Positions 2,382 to 38,552 of a DNA stretch of 64,000 bases are shown piece after piece. This DNA is from Gemmatimonadales bacterium (lineage in GTDB: Bacteria; Gemmatimonadota; Gemmatimonadetes; Gemmatimonadales; GWC2-71-9). The notes under the pieces are model-generated. The model had not been told where the DNA came from. It saw nothing but the letters and a program-made list of their open reading frames with translations, and made no database searches. Every line of letters begins with the position of its first letter. Positions within the stretch are counted from its first letter, which is position 1. The DNA lies in NCBI GenBank assembly GCA_050733215.1, contig JBOHSN010000005.1:5322-69321 (forward strand). Reading direction: 5' to 3'. A program made the position numbers and the translations under genes.

Positions 2382-4916
2382 ATGTCAAAGCGTGCAGTGT
2401 CTGGGTTCCATACCTGGCTCCGTTCCGTCGCTCTGGCCGTCCTGGCCGCTCTCCTTCCCAGCATCACGACCGCGCAGCAGTCGGGTACAGTCACCGGAAC
2501 GGTGACCCGGGCCGAAGGCGGGGGCGCGCTGGCGGGCGTATCCGTATCGGTGCAGGGCACCGGCCAGACTACGGCCAGCCGTGGCGACGGCCGATACACG
2601 CTTCGCAACGTGCCCGCCGGCCCCCGGACCATCGTGTTCCGCTGGCTGGGGTATCGGCCCACTGAGCTGCCGGTGACGGTGGAACCCGGTGGGAGCGCTA
2701 CGCTGGATGCTGCGCTCGAGCCGGCGCCGGCGATCCTCAGCGACCTGGTGGTGCAGGGCGCCTCCCGCGCACCGGAGCGCATCGTCGAAGCGCCGGCGGC
2801 CATCTCGGTGGTCGAGCCCCGACTGCTCGAGGCCAACACGATTACCGGCCAGGTGCCGATGGCGCTGAAGGAAACGCCCGGCGTGGACCTGGTGCAGAGC
2901 GGCGTCAACGACTTCAACGTCAATACCCGCGGGTTCAACTCATCGCTCAACCGCCGCATGCTGGTGCTCCAGGACGGACGCGATCTCGCCATCGCGTTCC
3001 TCGGCTCGCAGGAGTGGAACACGCTCTCCGTTCCGCTCGAGGAGCTGGGACGCATCGAGGTGGTGCGCGGGCCGGGGTCGGCGCTCTACGGCGCGAACGC
3101 CTTCAGCGGCGTCATCGCGCTCACCACCCCGGCCGCGCGGGAGATCGTGGGGACCAAGCTCACGATCGGCGGCGGCGAGCTGGAGTCGCTCCGCGGCGAT
3201 CTGAGCCACGCCGGCGTCGCGGGCGGTGGACGGTTCGGCTACCGGGTGAACGGTGGCTACTACCGGAGCGACACGTTCACCCGCTCCCGGACGCTCCTCG
3301 ACCGCTCGAGCCTCGCGACGGAGTACGCGCCCGCTACCGACGCCGCCATCGGCCCGGCGCGGGAGGCACGGCCGCTCTCGGGGCAGACCCTCGACCCGGT
3401 GACCGGCGCGCCGCTGGGCGACCGCGACGACCTCCAGAACATCTACGGCTCGGCCCGGGTCGATTACTACACCCCTGGCGGCTCGGTGGTCAGCGCGGAC
3501 GGCGGCGCGGCCCGGGTGGAGAACGAAGTGCTCGTCACCGGCATCGGCCGGGTGCAGATTGAGAAGGCACTCCGTCCGTGGGCCCGGCTGGCCTGGGCCG
3601 GCGAGCGGTTCAATGTGTTCGGGTTCTGGAACGCACGCCGGACCCTCGATCCCCAGTTCTCGCTGGCGTCGGGCGCGCCGCTCCGCGAGACATCCGACAT
3701 CTTCCACGTGGAAGGGCAGACCAACTTCCGCTTCCTCGAGGAGCGGGGCCGGGTGGTGGTCGGGACGTCGTACCGGAACACCAACGTGGACACCGAGCTC
3801 ACCCTGATGGAGGCGGCGAACGACAACCGGAGCGACGATCTCTACGCGGGCTATGGCCAGGTGGAGTTCGACATCATTCCCAAGCTGAAGCTGGTCGCGG
3901 CGGCGCGCATCGACGACGGCACGCTGATCAGCACCCAGTTCTCGCCCAAGGGCGCCATCGTCTTCAGCCCGAACGAGAATCACTCCATCCGGGCGACAGT
4001 GAACCAGGCGTTCCAGACGCCCAACTACTCCGAGTTCTTCCTCCGGGTGGCGGCGGGCGCGCCGGCCAACTTCACCGCGCTCGAGACCGGGCTCCGGGCC
4101 TCAGCGCTCGGCCCGGCGCTCGCGGGCGTCCCGGTGGGGACGCTCTTTACCACGTCGGCGGCGGTGCCGGTGTTCGCCCGCGGCAACGCCGGGCTCGACG
4201 TCGAGTCCACCACCGGATACGAGCTGGGCTACAAGGGGGCGTTCGCGAACCGAGTGTATGTCACGCTGGATCTGTACTACAACGCAATCAGCGACTTCGT
4301 GACCGACCTCCTCCCCGGCGTGAATCCGGCGTACGGCCCCTGGACCGCGCCGGACGCCGTGCCGCCGCAGTTCCGGCCGGCGCTCGAGGCGGCGGTGCGA
4401 AACAGTCTCGCGCCGATCAACCCGATCGCCGCGGCGGGACTCACACGGGTGAATGGCAACACCGAGATCGTGCTGTCCTACACCAACGCCGGCCAGGTGG
4501 ACCAGTACGGCGCCGAGCTCGGTGTCGGTGTCCAGATTACCGACGAGGTCCGGGCGGACGGCTCGCTCAGCCTGTTCGACTTCGAGGTCGAGGCGGGCAG
4601 CCAGGCGGTGGGCGACCAGCTCCTGGCCAACACGCCCAGCACGAAGGGGACGCTGGGCGTCTCGTACACCGGGCGGCAGGGGCTCGACCTCGGCGCCAGC
4701 GTCCGGATCGTGGACAGCTACCAGTGGGCCGCGGGCGTGTTCGTGGGCGAAGTGCCCTCGAGTGAGTCGGTGGACGTGAACGCGGGGTACCGGATCAACC
4801 ACAACTTCCGGGTGTTCGCGCTGGCGACGAACGTGTTCGATCAGGAGCGGTATCACCTGTTCGGCGGGTCGGTGATCGGGCGGCGGGTGTTGGGCGGTAT
4901 CACCGTACAGTTCTAA
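2382..4916 (+). CDS. TonB-dependent outer-membrane receptor with N-terminal carboxypeptidase-regulatory-like domain
   Basis: ORF 2199..4916. Start set at ATG 2382 with GGGAGG at 2371-2376. Signal peptide, then [45 protein letters not shown], a plug region, a beta-barrel with alternating pattern, and C-terminal ..GGITVQF (terminal Phe). Confidence 0.9.
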
Positions 4917-4929
4917 CAAGAGGCTGGCG

Positions 4930-5122
4930 GCTATCCGCTATCCGCTTGTTCACGCGGCCCTCCGATGTCCTTGACGTCGGGGGGCCGCGGTGCATCGTCC
5001 CGTGGATAGCGGATAGCGGATAGCGGATAGCGGATAGCGGATAGCGGATAGCGGATAGCGGATAGCGGATAGCGGATAGCGGATAGCGGATAGCGGATAG
5101 CGGATAGCGGATAGCGGATAGC
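4930..5122. repeat. tandem-repeat-armed palindrome A: 2 x GCTATCC, GC hairpin core, 17 x GGATAGC
   Basis: Left arm 4930-4943 (GCTATCC x2). Core 4954-4988 is GCGGCCCTCCGATG..CGTCGGGGGGCCGC, a 14-bp stem with G-U pairs. Right arm 5004-5122 is exactly 17 perfect GGATAGC heptamers (119 nt), ending 16 nt before the leuS ATG. Confidence 0.95.
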
Positions 5123-5137
5123 TGCTACATTTCCGCC

Positions 5138-7657
5138 ATGTCCAGCAGCCCGACTCCCGCCCGCTCCCGCCCGCTCCCGCCCGCTCCCGACCCGGGCGGT
5201 TACGATCCGACCGCCGTCGAAGCGAAATGGCAGGCCCGCTGGGCCGAGCAGCGCACCAACGAGCCCGATCTCGACGGCGCGGCGCGTCCGTTCTTCAACC
5301 TGATGATGTTCCCGTACCCCTCGGCTGAGGGCCTCCACGTCGGGAACATGTTCGCCTTCACCGGCAGCGACGCCTTCGGGCGGTTCCAGCGGCTGCGTGG
5401 TCATGACGTCTTCGAGCCGATCGGCTTCGACGCGTTCGGCATCCACAGCGAGAACTACGCGATCAAGGTCGGCATCAACCCGGCCGAGCTGATCCCGCGC
5501 AACATCGTGAACTTCCGGCGCCAGCTCGTCCGGATCGGCGGAATGTTCGACTGGTCGCACGCGCTCGCCACCACTGACCCCGCGTACTACAAGTGGACCC
5601 AGTGGATCTTCCTCCAGCTGCTGAAGGCGGGGAAGGCGTACCGAAAGGCTGCGGCGGTCAACTGGTGCCCCAGGGACCAGACCGTGCTCGCCAACGAGCA
5701 GGTCATCAACGGACGCTGCGAGCGCTGCGACACGCCGGTCGAGCAGCGGACGCTTGAGCAGTGGTTCTTCCGCATCACCGAGTACGCCGGCCGCCTGCTG
5801 GCCGACCTCGACGATCCGGCCAGGATGGACTGGTCCGACAGCACGGCCACCGCTCAGCGGAACTGGATCGGCCGGTCCGAAGGCGCCGAGATCGAGTTCA
5901 CGGTGGGCGGCGCGGAAGACCAGGCGGACGGCGCCTCCGACGAGCGGCGCATCCGCGTCTTCACCACCCGGCCGGACACGCTGTTCGGCGCCACGTTCAT
6001 GGTGCTCGCGCCCGAGCATCCGCTCCTGCTGGAGATCGTCACGCCCGAGCAACGCGCGGCCGTGCTGGCGTACCGTCAGGCCGCGCAGGCCAAGGACCTG
6101 GTCTCACGCAAGGTCGGCGACCGCGACAAGAGTGGCGTCTTCACCGGCGCGTTCGCGACCAACCCCGCCACCGGCGCGCTCATCCCCGTGTGGACCGCCG
6201 ACTACGTGCTCATGGAGTACGGCACCGGCGCCATCATGGCCGTGCCGGGCCACGACGAGCGCGACTTCGAGTTCGCGCGGAAGCACGGTCTCGAGATCGT
6301 TCGAGTGCTGGCGCCGGAGGGACAGCCGGCCAATGCGCCGCTCGAGGCCGCCGAGACCGAGACCGCCGGGTACCGGATGGTGAATTCGGGTCCGTTCAAC
6401 GGCCGGCCTGCGGATGCGGGCAAGCGCGACATCATCCGCTGGCTGGAGTCGTCAGGCCACGGCAAGGGTGTCGTGCAGTACCGGCTGCACGACTGGTGCA
6501 TCTCCCGCCAGCGGTACTGGGGCCCGCCGATCCCGATCATCTACTGCGAGCGCTGCGGCCCGGTGCCGGTCCCGGAGGAGGACCTGCCCGTACTGCTACC
6601 CGCGATCGACGACTTCCGCCCCGACGACACGGGTGTGTCGCCGCTCGCGCGGGTGAAGGAGTGGTACCACGTTGCCTGCCCGCAATGCGGCGGTCCCGCG
6701 CGCCGGGAGACCGACGTCTCCGACACGTTCCTCGACTCGGCGTGGTACTTCCTGCGCTACCCGAGCACGGACTTCGACGACCGGCCGTTCGATCCCGCGC
6801 GCACCCAGAAGTGGCTGCCGGTGGCCACGTATATCGGCGGCAACGAGCACGCCGTGCTCCACCTGCTCTACTCCCGCTTCATCACGATGGTGCTGCACGA
6901 TCTCGGCCATCTCGACTTCGACGAGCCGTACCGAACGTTTCGCGCGCACGGGCTGATCGTGAAGGACGGCGCGAAGATGTCCAAGTCGCGCGGCAACGTC
7001 GTCGTGCCCGACGACTACATCGCACGCTGGGGGGCCGACGCCTTCCGGATGTACCTGATGTTCCTGGGTCCGTTCCAGGAGGGCGGCGACTTCCGCGACG
7101 ACGGCCTCAACGGCCCGCGGCGGTTCCTCGACAAGCTGTGGGCGCTGGTGGGTCAGAGCCTGCGGGAGGATGCGGCGGGGGGTGAGATCCACCACCCCAT
7201 CCTGGTGAAGTGGCATCAGACCAGGAAGAAGGCGACGCACGACATCGAGCGGCTGAGCTACAACACCGCGATCGCCGCGCAGATGGAGCTGCTCAACACG
7301 ATGCGCGAGGCGAACTGCGCCGAGCGCGCCGTGGTCGAGGACATGGTGCTCATGGTAGCGCCGTTCGCGCCCCACTTCGCCGAGGAGTGCTGGGAGCGGC
7401 TCGGCCACGACGGCTCGATCTTCGACGGCCGCTGGCCCGAGTGGGACGAGGCGCTGACGGTGGAGGACACGGTCGAGATCGCGGTCCAGGTGAACGGCAA
7501 GACGCGGGGCAAGGTGACGGTGCGGCGGGACGCAAGCGAGGACGAGGCGGTGAAGGCGGCCAGCGCGGAACCGTCGATTCGGAAGTTCCTCGACGGGAAG
7601 ACGGTGAAGAAGGTGATCCTGGTTCCCAACCGGCTGCTCAATCTTGTGGTGCAGTGA
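5138..7657 (+). CDS. leuS: leucine--tRNA ligase
   Basis: 839-aa ORF. Motifs: YDPTAVEAKWQARW, HVGNMFAFTGSDAFGRFQRLRGHDV (HIGH-type motif), the editing domain, and GAKMSKSRGNVV (KMSKS). Confidence 0.97.
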   Translation: MSSSPTPARSRPLPPAPDPGGYDPTAVEAKWQARWAEQRTNEPDLDGAARPFFNLMMFPYPSAEGLHVGNMFAFTGSDAFGRFQRLRGHDVFEPIGFDAFGIHSENYAIKVGINPAELIPRNIVNFRRQLVRIGGMFDWSHALATTDPAYYKWTQWIFLQLLKAGKAYRKAAAVNWCPRDQTVLANEQVINGRCERCDTPVEQRTLEQWFFRITEYAGRLLADLDDPARMDWSDSTATAQRNWIGRSEGAEIEFTVGGAEDQADGASDERRIRVFTTRPDTLFGATFMVLAPEHPLLLEIVTPEQRAAVLAYRQAAQAKDLVSRKVGDRDKSGVFTGAFATNPATGALIPVWTADYVLMEYGTGAIMAVPGHDERDFEFARKHGLEIVRVLAPEGQPANAPLEAAETETAGYRMVNSGPFNGRPADAGKRDIIRWLESSGHGKGVVQYRLHDWCISRQRYWGPPIPIIYCERCGPVPVPEEDLPVLLPAIDDFRPDDTGVSPLARVKEWYHVACPQCGGPARRETDVSDTFLDSAWYFLRYPSTDFDDRPFDPARTQKWLPVATYIGGNEHAVLHLLYSRFITMVLHDLGHLDFDEPYRTFRAHGLIVKDGAKMSKSRGNVVVPDDYIARWGADAFRMYLMFLGPFQEGGDFRDDGLNGPRRFLDKLWALVGQSLREDAAGGEIHHPILVKWHQTRKKATHDIERLSYNTAIAAQMELLNTMREANCAERAVVEDMVLMVAPFAPHFAEECWERLGHDGSIFDGRWPEWDEALTVEDTVEIAVQVNGKTRGKVTVRRDASEDEAVKAASAEPSIRKFLDGKTVKKVILVPNRLLNLVVQ
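5151..5190. repeat. C-rich decamer array (CCGCTCCCGC x about 4) inside the leuS N-terminal extension
   Basis: cgactcccgc ccgctcccgc ccgctcccgc ccgctcccga. It encodes ..[15 protein letters not shown].., which lies before the conserved LeuRS core. Confidence 0.9.
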
Positions 7658-7749
7658 GCGGTAAGCGGTGAGCCGGCCAAACAAAGCGGGGGTCCGGTTC
7701 ACGCCGGATCTCCCCGCCTACCGCTCACCGCTCACCGCTTACCGCTCAC
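7654..7749. repeat. tandem-repeat-armed palindrome B: 3 x GTGAGCG, core, 5 x CGCTCAC; spans stop codon to stop codon
   Basis: Left arm 7654-7674 (gtgagcg gtaagcg gtgagcc) contains the leuS TGA (7655-7657). Imperfect GC core GCGGGGGTCCGG..GCCGGATCTCCCCGC. Right arm 7715-7749 (cgcctac cgctcac cgctcac cgcttac cgctcac) contains the stop (7746-7748) of the convergent oxidase gene. Confidence 0.95.
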
Positions 7750-8888: not shown

Positions 8889-8929
8889 ATGGACCTCCAA
8901 GGATGCCGCCAAGATACGTCGCGGGGGCC

Positions 8930-9063
8930 GCTATGCGCTATCCGCTATCCGCCCTGGCCGCGGTCATCCCAAAACTGCCGCGACCACCGAGCGACGGCGG
9001 TGCGCGCGAATAGCGGATAGCGGATAGCGGATAGCGGATAGCCGATAGCGGATAGCCGATAGC
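8930..9063. repeat. tandem-repeat-armed palindrome C: 3 x GCTATCC, core, 8 x GGATAGC
   Basis: Left arm 8930-8950 (gctatgc gctatcc gctatcc). 57-nt GC core. Right arm 9008-9063 (gaatagc, ggatagc x4, cgatagc, ggatagc, cgatagc) ends at the stop of the VIT gene (9064-9066). Same heptamer as element A. Confidence 0.95.
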
Positions 9064-10191: not shown

Positions 10192-10287
10192 AGAAGAGCA
10201 GAAGAGCGGAAGAGCAGAAGAGCCGCTGGACGGCCCCGTGGAAGCGGTTCCATCCGCTCTTCGGCTCTTCCGCTCTTCTGCTCTTCC
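10192..10287. repeat. tandem-repeat-armed palindrome D: 4 x AGAAGAGC, core, 4 x GCTCTTCN (octamers)
   Basis: Left arm 10192-10223 (agaagagc agaagagc ggaagagc agaagagc). 32-nt core containing GGAAGCGGTTCC. Right arm 10256-10287 (gctcttcg gctcttcc gctcttct gctcttcc). It lies between divergent starts (VIT 10179, ECF sigma 10332). Confidence 0.95.
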
Positions 10288-12703: not shown

Positions 12704-12704
12704 A

Positions 12705-12780
12705 GTGTGAGTGCGAGTGTGAGTGACGAGGGGCGCCTGAGTCACCCCTCACACTCACACTCACACTCACACTCACACTC
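12705..12780. repeat. tandem-repeat-armed palindrome E: about 3.5 x GTGTGA, core hairpin, 5 x ACACTC (hexamers); stop to stop
   Basis: gtgtga gtgcga gtgtga gtga (12705-12726). Core cGAGGGGcgcctgagtcaCCCCTC. Then acactc x5 (12751-12780). Flanked by the TGA at 12701-12703 and the convergent stop at 12782-12784. Confidence 0.95.
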
Positions 12781-14786: not shown

Positions 14787-15797
14787 TTGCCAACGCCAAC
14801 TGCCAGTCGCTCGGCGCGTCGACGATTGCGTTCCGGAGCCGCCCGGTGGCGGCTCGCGCTCGGTCTCCTGCTTGGATGTCCCTCGGCGGGCGCCGGCCAG
14901 GGGCTCCCGGCATGGGCCCCCATCAATCCGGCTGCCGCGAGTCGCAGCGCGCTCGGGTTCCAGCCGTATGTGGATCCCGCACCCGGCCGCTGGCGTGCCA
15001 GCATCCGCCTCGATTACGGAAGCGCCATCGAGTACAACCTTCCGTTCCCGCAGCCGAGCTGGCTGCTCGATGCGGAGCTGATGCGGCTCGAGCTCGGCGT
15101 GGTGCGAGATCTGGGCTCGCGCACGTTCGCCATCGCCGAGCTGCCGGTCCTGGGAGCCTACGATGGGTTCCTCGACGGCTTCCTGGAGTGGTACCACGAC
15201 CTCTTCGGCATCGCGATGCCCGAGCGCGACGCCCGGCCCCGCAATGCGTTCGCGTACGACCTGACCGCGCCGTCGGGCACCCGCGTGGTCCGCGACCGCT
15301 CCGGGCTCTTCCTCGGCGACCTCAGACTCGGCGTCGGCTACCGCTTCAACTCGGTGCTCCAGACGGTCGGATCCGTCACGCTGCCGACCAGCATCGGTCC
15401 GGACGGCTACGGCCGCGGCACGGTCTCGGTGAACGCGGTGACGACGCTTCGCGCGCCGTTCTCGTCCCGCTTCATCTACGAGGGCAGCCTCGGCGTGGGC
15501 TTCACGCCGAGCGAAGGAGCGCTCGCCGACTTCCACCGGGAGCTCTTCCTGTCGGCGACGTCGGGATTGCGGTTCCGTTTCTGGGGCCGGCAGTCCCTGT
15601 TCGCCAACTTCTTCTATCACTCGCCGTACTACGACGACGTGATGCTGCCGGCGCTGGACCAGCACGACCTGGCCCTGGATTTCGGGTGGATTCTCGCCAC
15701 CCGCGGCGGGCGCGAGTGGCGCATCGGTATGGTGGAAGATCTGGAGCCGAGCGGGCCCGGCATCGATCTGGTGTTCCGGCTGGGGGCCACCTTCTAA
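14787..15797 (+). CDS. DUF3187-like outer-membrane protein (hypothetical)
   Basis: 336-aa ORF with a TTG start. An alternative TTG at 14826 gives MRSGAARWRLALGLLLGC.. signal/lipobox. The sequence is rich in alternating beta-strand patterns and ends ..LVFRLGATF. The family assignment is from memory of DUF3187 sequences and is tentative. Confidence 0.6.
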   Translation: MPTPTASRSARRRLRSGAARWRLALGLLLGCPSAGAGQGLPAWAPINPAAASRSALGFQPYVDPAPGRWRASIRLDYGSAIEYNLPFPQPSWLLDAELMRLELGVVRDLGSRTFAIAELPVLGAYDGFLDGFLEWYHDLFGIAMPERDARPRNAFAYDLTAPSGTRVVRDRSGLFLGDLRLGVGYRFNSVLQTVGSVTLPTSIGPDGYGRGTVSVNAVTTLRAPFSSRFIYEGSLGVGFTPSEGALADFHRELFLSATSGLRFRFWGRQSLFANFFYHSPYYDDVMLPALDQHDLALDFGWILATRGGREWRIGMVEDLEPSGPGIDLVFRLGATF

Positions 15798-16963: not shown

Positions 16964-17019
16964 GAGTGTGAGTGTGAGTGTCCTCGCACTCGCACTCGCA
17001 CTCGCACTCGCACTCACAG
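16964..17019. repeat. tandem-repeat-armed palindrome G: 3 x GAGTGT, CC, 5 x TCGCAC + TCACAG (hexamers); stop to stop
   Basis: gagtgt x3 (16964-16981), cc, tcgcac x5, tcacag (16984-17019). The arms pair through G-U (GAGTGT with GCACTC). Bounded by the TGA at 16960-16962 and the fabH TAG at 17020-17022. Confidence 0.95.
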
Positions 17020-35159: not shown

Positions 35160-36809
35160 CTATAAGCTGTCGCTCTCCGCGGGGATGTCACTCTCATCGC
35201 CACCCAGCGCCGGCTCCAGCGCGTCGGGCACGCTGTCGCTCGGGATGACCACGCCGTCCGCGCCGAGCAGCCGGAAGAGGCGCCACTGGGCCCGGCGAGC
35301 GGCCTGCTGCCGCGGCCCGTTGTAGATCAGGGCGACGATCAGCGTGCCCTCCGGACGGCCGAGATAGCCGACCACGCTCGCGGCGTTGCCGAGCGTTCCG
35401 GTCTTCGCCCGCACCACACCGCTTCCCGGAAAACCGGAGCCGAGTCGGTGCAGCGTGCCGCTGCCGTTGGGCGGCAGTAGCTGGGGGAAGTTCCGGCCCG
35501 CGGGAGTCGCGGGATAGTTCGCGAGATAGGAGATGAAGGTGGACGGCGCCACCCGGTTGTCGAACGAGAGGCCGCTGCCGTCCACGAGGGCGAGCCCGGG
35601 AGCGGTGTTCGTGACCTCGAGCACATGCGCGGCGAGCCGCTGGGGGCCCGCCTCCCGTCCGCCCGCCCACTGGAGCAGCAGCTCAGCCGCGTAGTTGAGG
35701 CTCCGGCGGTTGACTTCGCTCGCCAGCGAGTCGAGCGGCGGCGAGGACACCTCGGCCAGCACCCGGGGGGCGGCAGCCACCGGCGGAATGCCTGGCTGCG
35801 CCTTGGGATTCCAGGCGATACCCGCGCGCTGGAGCGCCCGTGCCCATGCGGCGCTCAGCACTGCCTTGGGGTCGCGCATCGGCGCGCCGACCGTGCGCAC
35901 CCGTGCGCGGCGACCGATTGTGCCGGTAAGCGTCCAGCCCCCATCCGATCGCGGCTGGAGCGCGAGCCGCGACCGCCGCCCCGCGCGGGTCGTCGCCCTC
36001 ACGTTGACGAGCGAGAGGATGCCGTCCGGCGAGGCGCCGACGATGCGCGGTCTGGCTCCGCTCTTCGAGCCCGGTTGCACCGTCACCCAGATCACGTTCT
36101 CATGCAGCGTCAGCGGACCGATCGGCGGAGCGAACACCCGTCCGCGGTGTCGCGGCGACCACGCGGCCGGATAGATCGCGTCGGCCGGGCCGTCGGTACT
36201 CTGCACGTGGAGCGGACCGCCCAGCGTCCGGACACCGGTGCTCGCGAGCTGGAGCGCGAGGTCGTAAAGCATCGGCCCCTCGCCGGGCCCGCGTTCGAGC
36301 GACGGGTCGCCGTTGAGCTCGAGGCCCCAGGTCCCGATCCACTCACCCGTGGCGGGCTCCAACGTCCCGGCCCCGATCACCCGCGTCGGTCGTCGCGCGG
36401 TGCCACCCAGCACGCTCCGCGCGAAGCCGGTGGTGAACACCTTCACCGTCGATGCGGGAACCAGGGGCGTATCGGGATTCCGTGCCCAGAGCAGGCGACC
36501 GTTCTGGTCGGCGAGCGCGATGCCCCACTCACCCCGGGTGCGGGAAATGGTTTCGCGGTACCATGGCTCCACGATCCGATCGAGCCAGGCGCCATCCGGC
36601 GGCGGAGCGACGGCGGGCAGTGCGGCCGGCAGTGCGGCCGGCAGTGCGGCCGGCAGTGCGGCCGCCGTCGAGTCCTGCGCGGCGAGCGGCGCTGGGAGCA
36701 CGACTGCGGCAACGGCGCAACATCGTATCGCCCTCCGGAGATGGCGCCGGTGGCGCGAAGGCAGCAAATCCATGGACCCCGCAATCTGGGCTGGTCTAAC
36801 GGGTGACAC
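35160..36809 (-). CDS. dacB: D-alanyl-D-alanine carboxypeptidase/endopeptidase (PBP4, peptidase S13)
   Basis: 549-aa ORF with a GTG start. The SxxK motif is in PASTVKVFTTGFA. Overall collinear with the PBP4 family (..LHVQSTDG.., KTGTLGNASVVGY). Confidence 0.88.
   Translation of the reverse strand: MSPVRPAQIAGSMDLLPSRHRRHLRRAIRCCAVAAVVLPAPLAAQDSTAAALPAALPAALPAALPAVAPPPDGAWLDRIVEPWYRETISRTRGEWGIALADQNGRLLWARNPDTPLVPASTVKVFTTGFARSVLGGTARRPTRVIGAGTLEPATGEWIGTWGLELNGDPSLERGPGEGPMLYDLALQLASTGVRTLGGPLHVQSTDGPADAIYPAAWSPRHRGRVFAPPIGPLTLHENVIWVTVQPGSKSGARPRIVGASPDGILSLVNVRATTRAGRRSRLALQPRSDGGWTLTGTIGRRARVRTVGAPMRDPKAVLSAAWARALQRAGIAWNPKAQPGIPPVAAAPRVLAEVSSPPLDSLASEVNRRSLNYAAELLLQWAGGREAGPQRLAAHVLEVTNTAPGLALVDGSGLSFDNRVAPSTFISYLANYPATPAGRNFPQLLPPNGSGTLHRLGSGFPGSGVVRAKTGTLGNAASVVGYLGRPEGTLIVALIYNGPRQQAARRAQWRLFRLLGADGVVIPSDSVPDALEPALGGDESDIPAESDSL
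36616..36663. repeat. in-frame 12-nt tandem repeat x4 (GGCAGTGCGGCC) in dacB
   Basis: Four perfect copies. They encode (AALP)4 directly after the predicted signal peptide. Confidence 0.95.
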
Positions 36810-36905: not shown

Positions 36906-37268
36906 ATGAGAATCGACAACTGTGCGCGCTTCGCGCTCCTGGGGGCCCTGGTGGCCTCGCTGGCGTGTGCGCGCAACACCGAAAATGGGGACGATACCGG
37001 CGCGACCGGCCGCGTGACGACGGCCGATACGGGGGCCACCGTCAGAGTGCGTCCTGATACGACCGTGAGTCCCGATACGGTCGGGCGCGCACACCCCGAC
37101 TCGGCCACCGGCGGGGGAGCGCCAGTGCGCCCCGGCACCGCTGACTCGGCCCAGCCCGGTATCACACCGGTCGACACCGCCATGGCGGACACCTCCGCGG
37201 GCCCGGGGTGGCCGGTCGACACCATGCAGGGTGGTGGCTGGGCGACGCCGCCCGATTCGGGACAGTGA
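36906..37268 (+). CDS. hypothetical lipoprotein, low-complexity (Thr/Asp/Gly/Pro-rich)
   Basis: 120-aa ORF with GAGGAGG upstream. Lipobox LVASLAC. Internal imperfect repeat TGATGRVTTADTGATVRVRPDTTVSPDT. Confidence 0.65.
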   Translation: MRIDNCARFALLGALVASLACARNTENGDDTGATGRVTTADTGATVRVRPDTTVSPDTVGRAHPDSATGGGAPVRPGTADSAQPGITPVDTAMADTSAGPGWPVDTMQGGGWATPPDSGQ

Positions 37269-37269
37269 T

Positions 37270-37391
37270 GTGAGCGGTGAGCGGTGAGCGGTGAGCGGTG
37301 AGCAGTAAGCAGTGAGCAGTAAGAAGGGGCTCCCGAGCCGTGTAGCCGGAGCCCCTTCCGCTCACCGTTTACCGCTCACCGCTCACCGCTA
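37270..37391. repeat. tandem-repeat-armed palindrome J: about 7.7 x GTGAGCG, perfect 10-bp core hairpin, about 4.8 x CCGCTCA; stop to stop
   Basis: Left arm 37270-37323 (gtgagcg x4, gtgagca, gtaagca, gtgagca, gtaag). Core AAGGGGCTCC..GGAGCCCCTT (37324-37357). Right arm 37358-37391 contains the TAG (37389-37391) of the convergent acyl-CoA dehydrogenase gene. The left arm begins 2 nt after the TGA at 37266-37268. Same unit as element B. Confidence 0.95.
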
Positions 37392-38552
37392 CCTGAGCAG
37401 CATTTTCGCGATCGTCTGCAGCTGCATGTTGCTGGTGCCCTCGTAGATCGTGCCGATCTTCGCGTCGCGATAGAACTTCTCCGCCGGATATTCCGTCGAG
37501 TAGCCGTAGCCGCCGAACAGCTCGAGGCACTTCGACGTGGTGCGGTCGGCCACCTGGGAACTCAGCAGCTTGGCCATCGCAGCCTCCCGCGCAAACGGCC
37601 GGCCGGCATCCTTCAACCGCGCGGCGTTGTACACCATGAGCCGCGCCGACTCGAGCTCGGTCGCCATCTGCGCGAGCTGGAACTGCACGCCCTGGAACTC
37701 CGCGATCGCCTTGCCGAACTGCTTGCGCTCCTTCACGTAGGTCGCGGCAGCCTCGAGCGCGCCGGTTCCCACGCCGATCATCTGGGCGCCAATGCCGATC
37801 CGCCCCTCGTTCAGCGTCTCGATCGCGATCCTGTAACCCTGGCCCACCGGTCCCAGCACGTTCTCGTCCGGCACCCGGCACTGCTCCAGGATCAGCTCGA
37901 CCGTGCTGGAAGCCCGGATGCCGAGCTTGCTCTCCCGCTTGCCGATGGAAAAGCCGGGAACGTCGCGCTCCACCAGGAACGCGGTGATGCCCTTGTACCC
38001 CTTCGCGAAATCCGTATTGGCGAAGACGATGAAGAAGCCGGCTTCGGCGCCGTTGGTGATCCAGAACTTCCGGCCGGTGAGCGACCAGCCGCCGTCCGCC
38101 CGCTCTGCCTTCGTTTCGAGGGCGAACGCGTCGCTGCCGCTCGCGGGCTCCGAGAGCGCGAAGGCCCCCAGCAGCTCGGTGGTGAGGCGCGGGAAGAACC
38201 GCGCCTTCTGCTCGTCGGTGCTCCAGCGCCCTACCGCGTTGTTGACCAGCGTGTTGTGCACGTCCACGTAGATGGCCGCCGACGCGTCCACCCGGGCCAG
38301 CTCCTCGATGGCCAGCGTGGCCATGAAGATCGATCCGCCGGCCCCGCCGTACTGCTCCGGCACTCCGATGCCCATGAGGCCGAGCTCGAAGAACTTGGCG
38401 ATGAGGTCGGGCCGGAAGCACCCCGCCTCGTCCATCTCCGTCACGTGCGGGCGGACCTCGGATTCGGCAAACTCGCGGACGGTGGAGCGGAAGAGCTCCT
38501 CTTCCTCGCTCAGCATGCTGAGGGCGGGTGCGGCGCTGGTGACGTCGGTCAT
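37389..38552 (-). CDS. acyl-CoA dehydrogenase (short/branched-chain type)
   Basis: 387-aa ORF. ..FALSEPASGSDAFALETKA..WITNG..IYEGTSNMQLQTIAK. Collinear with the ACAD family throughout. Confidence 0.93.
   Translation of the reverse strand: MTDVTSAAPALSMLSEEEELFRSTVREFAESEVRPHVTEMDEAGCFRPDLIAKFFELGLMGIGVPEQYGGAGGSIFMATLAIEELARVDASAAIYVDVHNTLVNNAVGRWSTDEQKARFFPRLTTELLGAFALSEPASGSDAFALETKAERADGGWSLTGRKFWITNGAEAGFFIVFANTDFAKGYKGITAFLVERDVPGFSIGKRESKLGIRASSTVELILEQCRVPDENVLGPVGQGYRIAIETLNEGRIGIGAQMIGVGTGALEAAATYVKERKQFGKAIAEFQGVQFQLAQMATELESARLMVYNAARLKDAGRPFAREAAMAKLLSSQVADRTTSKCLELFGGYGYSTEYPAEKFYRDAKIGTIYEGTSNMQLQTIAKMLLR

What the first reader, a model, noticed from the sequence alone, without database searches (positions are those of the whole stretch)
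37270..37391. Best-formed example: 8 x GTGAGCG, a perfect 10-bp hairpin, 5 x inverted units, exactly between two stop codons
The left arm shows a mutation gradient. Four perfect GTGAGCG units are followed by GTGAGCA, GTAAGCA, GTGAGCA moving toward the core. The right arm also has variants (CCGTTTA). The unit is identical to that of element B 30 kb away, although the cores are unrelated. Shared units with unrelated cores argue against simple transposition of a whole element. They favour local array growth from a small seed, or unit-specific recruitment.
Basis: partly seen in the sequence, partly recalled or inferred. Interest (0 to 1): 0.6.

Follow-up and report, generated by a model that had tools for sequence, protein, structure and literature searches.

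The report
Repeat-armed hairpin between two gene ends
The 120-base gap between two facing genes of a soil Gemmatimonadales bacterium is filled by a long hairpin whose arms are runs of the 7-base unit GTGAGCG; it is one of about 260 such elements in this genome, a repeat type already reported in Xanthomonas and Geobacter, and it most likely acts as a two-way gene-end hairpin.

Summary
The element has 7 full GTGAGCG-type units plus a partial one, a perfect 11-bp stem-loop, then 4 full and 1 truncated inverted units. It fills the whole spacer between the stop codons of a small lipoprotein gene and an acyl-CoA dehydrogenase gene.

It is not special in this genome. There are 262 inverted array pairs against 3 direct pairs, in 54 unit families. 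Of these, 55 are GTGAGCG-type, all with the purine-rich arm first.

Whole-element transposition is unlikely here. One relative has only a plain A-tract/hairpin/T-rich terminator at this site. Two others carry different units or copy numbers.

Two claims fail. The unit variants are shared by 17-37 loci, not private. The core stem motif CGGAGCCC recurs in 16 of 55 cores, and element B sits in a 15-member core cluster.

New here: unit identity changes genome-wide. The sister genome carries GTGAGAG at this locus and at 11 of 24 other orthologous loci. That points to homogenisation between loci on top of local slippage.

The likely function is a bidirectional terminator or RNA 3'-end hairpin.

The parts
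36906..37268 (+). Small lipoprotein gene (120 aa; signal peptide with lipobox ...SLAC). Its TGA stop at 37266-37268 lies 1 nt before the left arm.
   Evidence: ORF. It is conserved at 52-59% identity, with the same lipobox and C-terminus GPGWP..GGW.TP.DSG, in the three closest genomes.
37270..37318 (+). Left (purine-rich) arm of 7 full heptamers: GTGAGCG x4, GTGAGCA, GTAAGCA, GTGAGCA.
37319..37322 (+). Partial unit GTAA. It forms a bulge between the arm and the core stem.
   Evidence: Sequence; fold.
37323..37358 (.). Core hairpin: an 11-bp perfect stem GAAGGGGCTCC / GGAGCCCCTTC with a 14-nt loop CGAGCCGTGTAGCC. On the - strand it is followed by CUUCUUACUGCU.
   Evidence: The stem motif is shared with other loci.
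37359..37386 (+). Right (pyrimidine-rich) arm of 4 full inverted units: CGCTCAC, CGTTTAC, CGCTCAC, CGCTCAC.
37387..37392 (+). Truncated outer unit CGCTAC. It contains the stop codon (cta, read as TAG) of the dehydrogenase gene.
37389..38552 (-). Acyl-CoA dehydrogenase gene (387 aa), convergent with the lipoprotein gene.
   Evidence: ORF. Orthologues were found in 40 of 41 related genomes.
7654..7749 (.). 'Element B', with the same unit family (3+4 units). Its core GGCCAAACAAAGCGGGGGTCCGG...CCGGATCTCCCC belongs to the 15-member core cluster.

Best explanation
**What it is (shown).** This is one copy of a genome-wide class of 'palindromic microsatellite' elements. Each has a locus-specific GC-rich stem-loop flanked by two inverted tandem arrays of a short unit, always with the purine-rich array on the 5' side of either strand. 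This copy fills the spacer between two convergent genes.

**What it does (inferred).** Transcripts coming from either gene end in the same kind of very long hairpin, starting at the stop codon. I think this hairpin acts as a bidirectional, U-tract-poor transcription terminator and/or a barrier to 3' exonucleases.
- The arrays take the place of the A-tract and U-tract of an ordinary two-way terminator.
- This would explain the fixed polarity. The arm transcribed last is pyrimidine-rich, which by established nucleic-acid thermodynamics gives the weaker RNA:DNA hybrid.

**How it evolves (partly shown).**
- Copy number changes by local slippage, independently in the two arms.
- Unit sequence is homogenised between the arms and between loci, most simply by ectopic gene conversion among arrays.
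- As a result a whole genome drifts from one unit (GTGAGCG) to another (GTGAGAG), while the elements stay at the same gene boundaries.
For: **Class and polarity**
- 262 inverted array pairs against 3 direct pairs, in 54 unit families.
- Polarity is 100% fixed within every family.
- GTRAGCR arrays: 55 convergent pairs, 0 divergent.
- All 10 pairs found in about 670 kb of other Gemmatimonadales DNA are also purine-first.

**Position**
- Array edges sit a median of 1 nt from an adjacent stop codon, but 27 nt from an adjacent start codon.
- Convergent spacers hold 53 of 228 intergenic elements (23%) against 12% of all spacers. Divergent spacers hold 18 (8%) against 12%.
- The GTGAGCG family has 15 convergent, 32 tandem and 4 divergent loci.

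**Terminator link**
- The array-less orthologue in G010 reads AAAAA-GGGGTCCGGA-loop-TCCGGACCC-GCTCTACTTAT.
- 261 non-array intergenic hairpins show the same A/purine 5' and T/pyrimidine 3' flank polarity: 136 against 87, P = 1e-4. The control gives 104 against 96.
- All five strong T-tracts in GTGAGCG-family cores lie 3' of the hairpin in the sense of the upstream gene.
- Sense-strand folds are more stable than antisense folds, 92 against 63, P = 0.005.

**Evolution**
- Arm lengths are uncorrelated between the two arms (rho 0.13). The variant units are shared by 17-37 loci.
- In 180 Gemmatimonadales loci, the same dehydrogenase 3' end carries nine different inverted-array elements with eight different units. 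Most start at or over the stop codon.
- Unit families are genome-specific. GTGAGCG: 122 hits in the own genome, 15 in G005. GTGAGAG: 37 in the own genome, 206 in G005.
- Of 24 orthologous GTGAGCR loci, G005 has GTGAGAG in both arms at 11. Three are mosaics, 8 keep the same unit and 2 carry another family.
Against:
- The consensus scan finds no canonical terminator here.
- In half of the tandem contexts the next start codon lies within 27 nt of the element. That leaves no room for a promoter, so many copies must sit inside operons and cannot be full terminators.
- The largest family, GGATAGC (56 loci), has the opposite polarity, pyrimidine-rich arm first. The terminator argument does not explain this.
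- 25 of 262 pairs lie inside ORFs.
- The two arms are unequal in length, so much of an arm is unpaired.
- T-tract orientation over all tandem cases is not significant: 15 against 11 in the GTGAGCG family and P = 0.11 over all families.
- Gene conversion is inferred from patterns. No conversion tract was demonstrated.
Confidence: 0.55

Rival explanations
1. It is a neutral or selfish by-product of replication. Palindromic microsatellites arise by slippage and by template switching within hairpins wherever sequence is free to vary. They have no role in gene expression.
For: - Arm lengths are uncorrelated.
- Units, periods and copy numbers differ at orthologous sites in the sister genome.
- 25 of 262 pairs sit inside ORFs.
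- Cores are recognisably conserved in only 4 of 15 orthologous pairs.
- G010 manages at this site with a plain hairpin.
Against: - Polarity is absolute in 54 families and across the order. A strand-symmetric copying error does not predict this.
- Elements dock tightly to stop codons but not to start codons.
- Positions persist while the sequence turns over.
- There is a sense-strand fold bias.
Confidence: 0.2
2. It is a mobile or dispersed repeat of MITE or REPIN type. A hairpin element with repeat arms is copied to new gene boundaries, perhaps by the genus's single-copy Y1 (RAYT-like) transposase. In that case the shared units simply reflect common descent.
For: - The GGATAGC family has a clearly conserved ~60-nt core at 56 loci and many copies in G005.
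- One third of GTGAGCG cores have a significant relative, and 15 of them form one cluster.
- The inner arm-core junction has the same phase in 85 of 107 arms.
- One Y1_Tnp gene is present and inherited vertically in 16 of 17 other genomes of the genus, besides this one.
- Unit families are patchy across genomes.
Against: - This element's core has no significant relative (P = 0.07).
- There is no target-site duplication.
- The orthologous site already holds a hairpin without arrays in G010.
- The Y1 gene is not flanked by arrays.
- Its presence does not track the three array families. G010 has the gene but none of them. Genomes of other families in the order lack the gene but have some arrays.
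Confidence: 0.13
3. The arrays are binding sites for sequence-specific proteins (as proposed for the paired tandem-repeat sites of Geobacter), or they are laid down by a trans-acting, unit-specific factor. The hairpin potential would be secondary.
For: - Unit identity is uniform within a genome and differs between sister genomes, also at orthologous loci. Co-evolution with a trans factor would give this pattern.
- Fixed convergent orientation is typical of paired protein sites.
- Aklujkar et al. 2009 (PMC2700814) interpreted the Geobacter pairs this way.
Against: - 54 unit families coexist in one genome, which would need many factors.
- Copy number is unconstrained, from 2 to 18.
- The sites lie at gene ends, not at promoters.
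- Mosaic arrays mix units within one arm.
- No candidate factor was found.
Confidence: 0.12

Closest known systems
Convergent GGGAATC heptamer arrays of Xanthomonas (Rehm et al. 2015, PMC4692102; read)
   Same: - Tandem heptamers, mostly intergenic.
- They lie closer to the upstream ORF than to the downstream one.
- There are 70-75 cases per genome of two arrays in convergent orientation on opposite strands, with the G-rich array first.
- Repeat lengths are not conserved between related species.
   Different: - Xanthomonas has essentially one unit, with GGG runs that form G-quadruplexes in vitro.
- GTGAGCG has no G-run.
- This genome has 54 unit families.
- The pairs here enclose a distinct GC-rich stem-loop core and abut stop codons.
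Paired tandem-repeat sites, classes 1-3, of Geobacter metallireducens (Aklujkar et al. 2009, PMC2700814; read)
   Same: - Several unit families occur in one genome. Class 2 has three repeats of TCTCCGTS[Y]. Class 3 has five heptanucleotide repeats MTYCTGA.
- Each occurs as pairs on opposite strands with a variable distance between them, drawn as hairpins by the authors.
   Different: - They were interpreted as binding sites of global regulators.
- Copy number is fixed (3 or 5) rather than variable.
- There is no report of docking to stop codons or of unit switching between species.
   Same: - They are placed between convergent genes directly after the stops.
- They have a GC-rich stem-loop with a purine-rich 5' flank and a pyrimidine-rich 3' flank that pair and extend the stem.
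- The array-less orthologue in G010 has exactly this form.
   Different: - There is no run of U.
- The flanks are 30-50 nt heptamer arrays.
- The fold is about -95 kcal/mol, far beyond a normal terminator.
- Many family members sit inside operons.
REP/BIME elements and REPINs with RAYT transposases; STRR heptamer repeats of cyanobacteria (both from my own knowledge; no paper read for them)
   Same: - They are abundant extragenic hairpin-forming repeats at gene ends that can stabilise upstream mRNA.
- This genus has one vertically inherited Y1 transposase gene.
- STRRs are tandem intergenic heptamers.
   Different: - REPs are single imperfect palindromes with a conserved tetranucleotide, not tandem arrays.
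- The Y1 gene here is not flanked by the repeats.
- STRRs are not defined by inverted pairing.

Membership tests
Paired (convergent) short-unit tandem arrays, Xanthomonas/Geobacter type | Tandem array of a 7-9 nt unit with at least 3 copies | tested here: met
   There are 7 full units in the left arm and 4 in the right.
Paired (convergent) short-unit tandem arrays, Xanthomonas/Geobacter type | A second array of the reverse-complement unit close by, in convergent (G-rich first) orientation | tested here: met
   The arms are 40 nt apart. Genome-wide there are 55 convergent GTRAGCR pairs and 0 divergent.
Paired (convergent) short-unit tandem arrays, Xanthomonas/Geobacter type | Many copies per genome, mostly intergenic and nearer to the upstream ORF's end | tested here: met
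   There are 262 pairs, 228 of them intergenic. The median distance is 1 nt from stop codons and 27 nt from start codons.
Paired (convergent) short-unit tandem arrays, Xanthomonas/Geobacter type | G-runs able to form G-quadruplexes (a feature of the Xanthomonas/Nostoc units only) | tested here: not met
   GTGAGCG has no run of two or more G within a unit, apart from the GG at unit junctions. It is therefore not a member of the G4-forming subclass.
Intrinsic (bidirectional) terminator | GC-rich stem-loop directly downstream of the stop codon(s) | tested here: met
   An 11-bp perfect GC-rich stem is extended by the arms, and the spacer is fully occupied.
Intrinsic (bidirectional) terminator | U-rich tract immediately 3' of the stem | tested here: not met
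   The consensus scan found 0 sites. There is only a pyrimidine-rich tail, CUUCUUACUGCU, on the dehydrogenase strand.
Intrinsic (bidirectional) terminator | Transcript 3' ends map to the element | not testable with these tools
MITE / dispersed mobile repeat | Internal sequence conserved among copies | tested here: inconclusive
   This core's best hit has P = 0.07 and shares only the stem motif. However, 20 of 55 family cores have a significant relative, and CGGAGCCC is in 16 of 55.
MITE / dispersed mobile repeat | Target-site duplication at the ends | tested here: not met
   The flanks are ...CAGTGAT | element | CTGAGCAG..., with no direct repeat.
REP/REPIN with RAYT | RAYT gene flanked by the repeats, with repeat presence tracking the gene | tested here: not met
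   The single Y1_Tnp gene at C157:3351-3800 has no arrays beside it. Its distribution does not follow the array families.
Rfam RNA families | Match at or above a family's gathering score | tested here: not met
   Only sub-threshold matches to long miRNA-precursor hairpins were found, at most 45.7 bits against 168.

The most novel reading that the evidence does not exclude
Unit identity and polarity are set genome-wide by a dedicated process, not by chance conversion. This could be a trans-acting factor, such as a templated repeat-adding or repeat-copying enzyme or a unit-specific binding protein. It would maintain expandable hairpin arms at gene ends. A change in that factor would rewrite both arms at a large share of the loci (GTGAGCG to GTGAGAG between two sister species) while the elements stay in place.
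Probability: 0.12. Interest if true: 0.85.

Novelty: new member of a known kind. Interest (0 to 1): 0.42.

Why it matters
Taken alone, this element is an ordinary member of a repeat class that is abundant in its genome and was already described in two other phyla. The value lies in what the family shows.

- Polarity is absolute, elements dock to stop codons, and an array-less terminator sits at the orthologous site. Together these give a concrete, testable idea of how high-GC bacteria that lack U-tracts may end or protect transcripts.
- Eleven of 24 orthologous loci switch from GTGAGCG to GTGAGAG in the sister species, in both arms. This is a clean case of concerted evolution among dispersed bacterial non-coding elements.
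- These arrays also break MAG assemblies. Contigs of relatives end at them.

Tried and rejected
- **Reads and RNA evidence.** There is therefore no test of transcript ends or of copy-number polymorphism.
- **Canonical terminator scan.** Nothing found.
- **Rfam.** Only generic hairpin noise.
- **More close relatives of this locus.** Scans of genome contigs and metagenome contigs gave nothing closer than the 91% genome already in hand.
- **Orthologous cores retained while arms switch.** This looked true by eye at a few loci. Statistically only 4 of 15 core pairs are alike. I do not claim it as general. Saturated neutral divergence explains the rest.
- **T-tract orientation.** 10 against 2 in the first small set fell to 15 against 11 in the fuller set. 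I kept only the observation that all five strong T-tracts are sense-oriented.
- **RAYT link.** The Y1 gene neither neighbours arrays nor tracks the array families.
- **A general 'mutation gradient'.** It is weak family-wide.
- **Stop codons as the cause of polarity.** Rejected as a general cause. Families whose units have no stop in any frame, such as AGAGGGCGGG, are also G-first.
- **Literature on Gemmatimonadetes repeats.** None in the held library.

Full report
**1. The observation**

The sequence is as described, with small corrections.
- The left arm has seven full heptamers at 37270-37318: GTGAGCG x4, GTGAGCA, GTAAGCA, GTGAGCA. A 4-nt partial unit GTAA follows.
- The core is a perfect 11-bp stem, GAAGGGGCTCC (37323-37333) paired with GGAGCCCCTTC (37348-37358), around a 14-nt loop.
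- The right arm is CGCTCAC, CGTTTAC, CGCTCAC, CGCTCAC (37359-37386), then a truncated CGCTAC.

The flanking genes end at the element.
- The + strand ORF 36906-37268 ends in TGA one base before the array.
- The - strand ORF 37389-38552 is an acyl-CoA dehydrogenase. It ends in TAG inside the truncated last unit.
- The 120-aa ORF is a real gene. It has a lipoprotein signal peptide and is conserved at 52-59% identity in the three closest genomes.

The element is not a chance feature.
- The two-unit pattern occurs 9 times in the window against 0.10 expected.
- Either strand folds at about -92 to -95 kcal/mol, z near -10 to -11.

**2. The element is one of a large class**

The window comes from a 3.97-Mb, 69.6% GC draft genome. 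Record titles of its relatives place it in soil Gemmatimonadales.
- A genome-wide TRF screen found 262 pairs of arrays with reverse-complementary units within 200 bp. It found only 3 same-orientation pairs. The pairs fall into 54 unit families.
- A stricter scan for GTRAGCR arrays found 55 convergent pairs, 0 divergent pairs and 30 solo arrays. Most solo arrays are 2-unit matches or hybrids with GTGAGAG.
- Polarity is completely fixed within every family. Nearly all families have the G- or purine-rich arm first.
- The exception is the largest family, GGATAGC, together with two single-locus variants of it. One 7-locus family has equal G and C in its unit.
- In about 670 kb from other Gemmatimonadales, all 10 pairs found are purine-first.

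**3. Position**

I used a crude gene caller of my own (3,584 genes, 86.6% coding).
- The pairs lie in tandem (157), convergent (53) and divergent (18) spacers, and inside ORFs (25). Nine more sit at contig edges.
- Convergent spacers are about twofold enriched.
- Array edges sit a median of 1 nt from an adjacent stop codon and 27 nt from an adjacent start codon.
- For units with a stop in all three frames, such as GTGAGCG, part of this is mechanical. The same docking holds for arms without stops.
- 'Exactly between two stop codons' is therefore the rule for the class, not a peculiarity of this copy.

**4.

(a) Variants.
- Among 477 units in 110 arms, GTGAGCG makes up 50%.
- GTAAGCG makes up 17% (37 loci), GTGAGCA 13% (24 loci) and GTAAGCA 5% (17 loci).
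- Only GTAAGAA is private, and GTAAACG is at 2 loci. The variants here are the family's standard ones.

(b) Gradient.
- Family-wide, 42% of the units next to the core are consensus, against 50-56% at the next four positions out. The trend is weak.
- In this copy the A-variants in the left arm are T-variants just 3' of the core hairpin on the dehydrogenase strand: CUUCUUAC UGCUCAC UGCUUAC.
- Arm lengths are uncorrelated between the two arms (rho 0.13).

(c) Cores.
- 20 of 55 cores have a relative above the null's 99th percentile.
- CGGAGCCC occurs in 16 of 55 cores against 0.55 expected.
- 15 cores, including element B, form one cluster. Many of these read hairpin plus CTTCTTTGG on one strand, which is a terminator signature.
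- This element's own core shares only the stem, with best-hit P = 0.07.
- Short GGGCTCC...GGAGCCC hairpins occur only inside array elements, with three different unit families.
- The inner arm-core junction has one phase in 85 of 107 arms. I cannot explain this.
- GGATAGC cores are plainly homologous.

**5. History of this locus**

The dehydrogenase tree gives ((own, G005), (G014, G010)). All four genomes have the convergent lipoprotein gene. Downstream of the dehydrogenase they differ.
- G010 has no arrays. Its spacer reads AAAAA-GGGGTCCGGA-loop-TCCGGACCC-GCTCTACTTAT inside an 8-bp outer inverted repeat.
- G014 has 3+4 GTRAGCA units.
- G005 has 4+9 GTGAGAA/GTGAGAG units. Two extra codons and the stop of the dehydrogenase lie in the array.
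- All four cores begin GGGG(N)(C)TCCGG or similar.

Across 180 Gemmatimonadales loci, this same gene end carries nine distinct inverted-array elements with eight different units. Most start at or over the stop codon.

**6. Units change genome-wide**

Counts of three-unit windows differ sharply between genomes.

| Unit | Own | G005 | G009 | G010 | G014 | G006 | G016 |
|---|---|---|---|---|---|---|---|
| GTGAGCG | 122 | 15 | 0 | 1 | 11 | 0 | 0 |
| GTGAGAG | 37 | 206 | 124 | 0 | 0 | 26 | 0 |
| GGATAGC | 325 | 389 | 0 | 0 | 0 | 75 | 42 |

I located 24 further own-genome GTGAGCR loci in G005 by their flanks. Their state in G005 is as follows.
- 11 now have GTGAGAG in both arms.
- 3 are mosaics.
- 8 keep GTGAGCR.
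- 2 carry GAGTTAC-type units.

Other points bear on this.
- Hybrid arrays also exist within the own genome.
- Other families show the same lability at syntenic sites. There are different copy numbers, a hexamer against a heptamer at one site, and a core that is inverted between the genomes.
- Cores are detectably alike in only 4 of 15 orthologous pairs. I attribute this to saturated neutral divergence, not replacement, but I cannot prove it.
- Independent parallel mutation at a dozen loci is implausible. Arrays must therefore exchange sequence between loci, or respond to a common factor.

**7. Function (inferred)**

No transcript data were available. The case for a two-way terminator or 3'-end protective hairpin rests on five points.
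- Placement.
- The array-less terminator at the orthologous site.
- The same purine-5'/pyrimidine-3' flank polarity at 261 ordinary intergenic hairpins: 136 against 87, P = 1e-4. The control gives 104 against 96.
- Sense-oriented strong T-tracts in family cores, 5 of 5.
- A modest sense-strand stability bias, 92 against 63.

Five points count against it.
- There is no U-tract.
- Many copies lie too close to the next start codon to be full terminators.
- The GGATAGC family has reversed polarity.
- Some copies lie inside ORFs.
- The arms are unequal in length.

**8. Comparison and novelty**

- Convergent heptamer array pairs were described in Xanthomonas (PMC4692102).
- Multi-family paired tandem-repeat sites were described in Geobacter metallireducens (PMC2700814).
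- I found nothing on Gemmatimonadetes in the held library.
- The element is a new member of that known kind.
- The absolute polarity, the docking to stop codons and the genome-wide unit switching are, as far as I could find, undescribed properties of the class.
- The single-copy, vertically inherited Y1 transposase-like gene of this genus shows no link to the arrays.

Noticed in passing
window 4930-5122 and 8928-9063 (56 loci genome-wide): The GGATAGC family is the largest in the genome. It is the main one with reversed polarity (GCTATCC arm first). It has a clearly conserved ~60-nt core, with a ~72-nt subfamily, so it behaves as an ordinary dispersed repeat. One arm at 5004-5122 has 17 perfect units. 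The family is present in only 4 of 18 genomes of the genus.
   Followed up: partly
window 10192-10287 versus L192 (G005:C313) around 15080-15185: The core of the AGAAGAGC element is inverted between this genome and its sister: GCGGTTCCATC against GATGGAACCGC. Recombination between the inverted arms would produce this.
   Followed up: partly
window 12704-12780 and 16964-17015 versus G005:C313: Elements at the same gene boundary in the two genomes use different units, and even different periods: hexamer GAGTGY against heptamer GAGTTAC, and GAGTGT against CTAGTG. In the second case the own-genome arms pair through G-U on the + strand only.
   Followed up: partly
genome contigs C17:28732, C26:31472, C113:39, C190:826: This is another small repeat family: a 41-nt GGGCTCCGCCGGGGCGCTG...CGGAGCCC hairpin with conserved flanks (gcgctcccgcc...aggtga / ggggcaaa...ccccggtctcctc). 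It is unrelated to the arrays.
   Followed up: no
window 36611-36664 (- strand gene 35160-36809): A 12-nt tandem repeat CGGCCGGCAGTG x4.5 lies in frame near the N-terminus of the D-Ala-D-Ala carboxypeptidase-like gene. It encodes AALPAALPAALPAALP just after the signal region.
   Followed up: no
G000 C157:3351-3800 (locus L031:1405-1857, - strand): This is a single-copy 150-aa Y1 (IS200/RAYT-like) transposase gene between atpH and a ferredoxin-like gene. It is present once in 16 of 17 other genomes of the genus, with identities that follow the species tree. It is absent from the other two families sampled in the order. It looks domesticated.
   Followed up: partly
G005:C316:1-1099 versus window 4000-5098: One contig of the sister MAG is 100% identical to the window, while the syntenic contig C313 is only about 86% identical. 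G005 (8% contamination) therefore seems to hold some contigs from this genome's own population.
   Followed up: no
G010 contigs C126, C82 and C330 (loci L194-L196): Contigs of related MAGs end close to where the array elements lie in the window. The repeats appear to break short-read assemblies.
   Followed up: no
L008 (G009), just downstream of the dehydrogenase stop: There are same-strand direct repeats of TTGGCTAT-type units (GGTCTTTGGCTATTGGCTTTTGGCTATTGG) and no inverted partner at the orthologous gene end.
   Followed up: no
G000 C30:3395 and C48:13738, right flanks: Two GTGAGCG-type elements lie directly beside tRNA genes. The flanks contain GGTTCGAATCC T-arm sequences. The class is therefore not restricted to protein-gene boundaries.
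   Followed up: no
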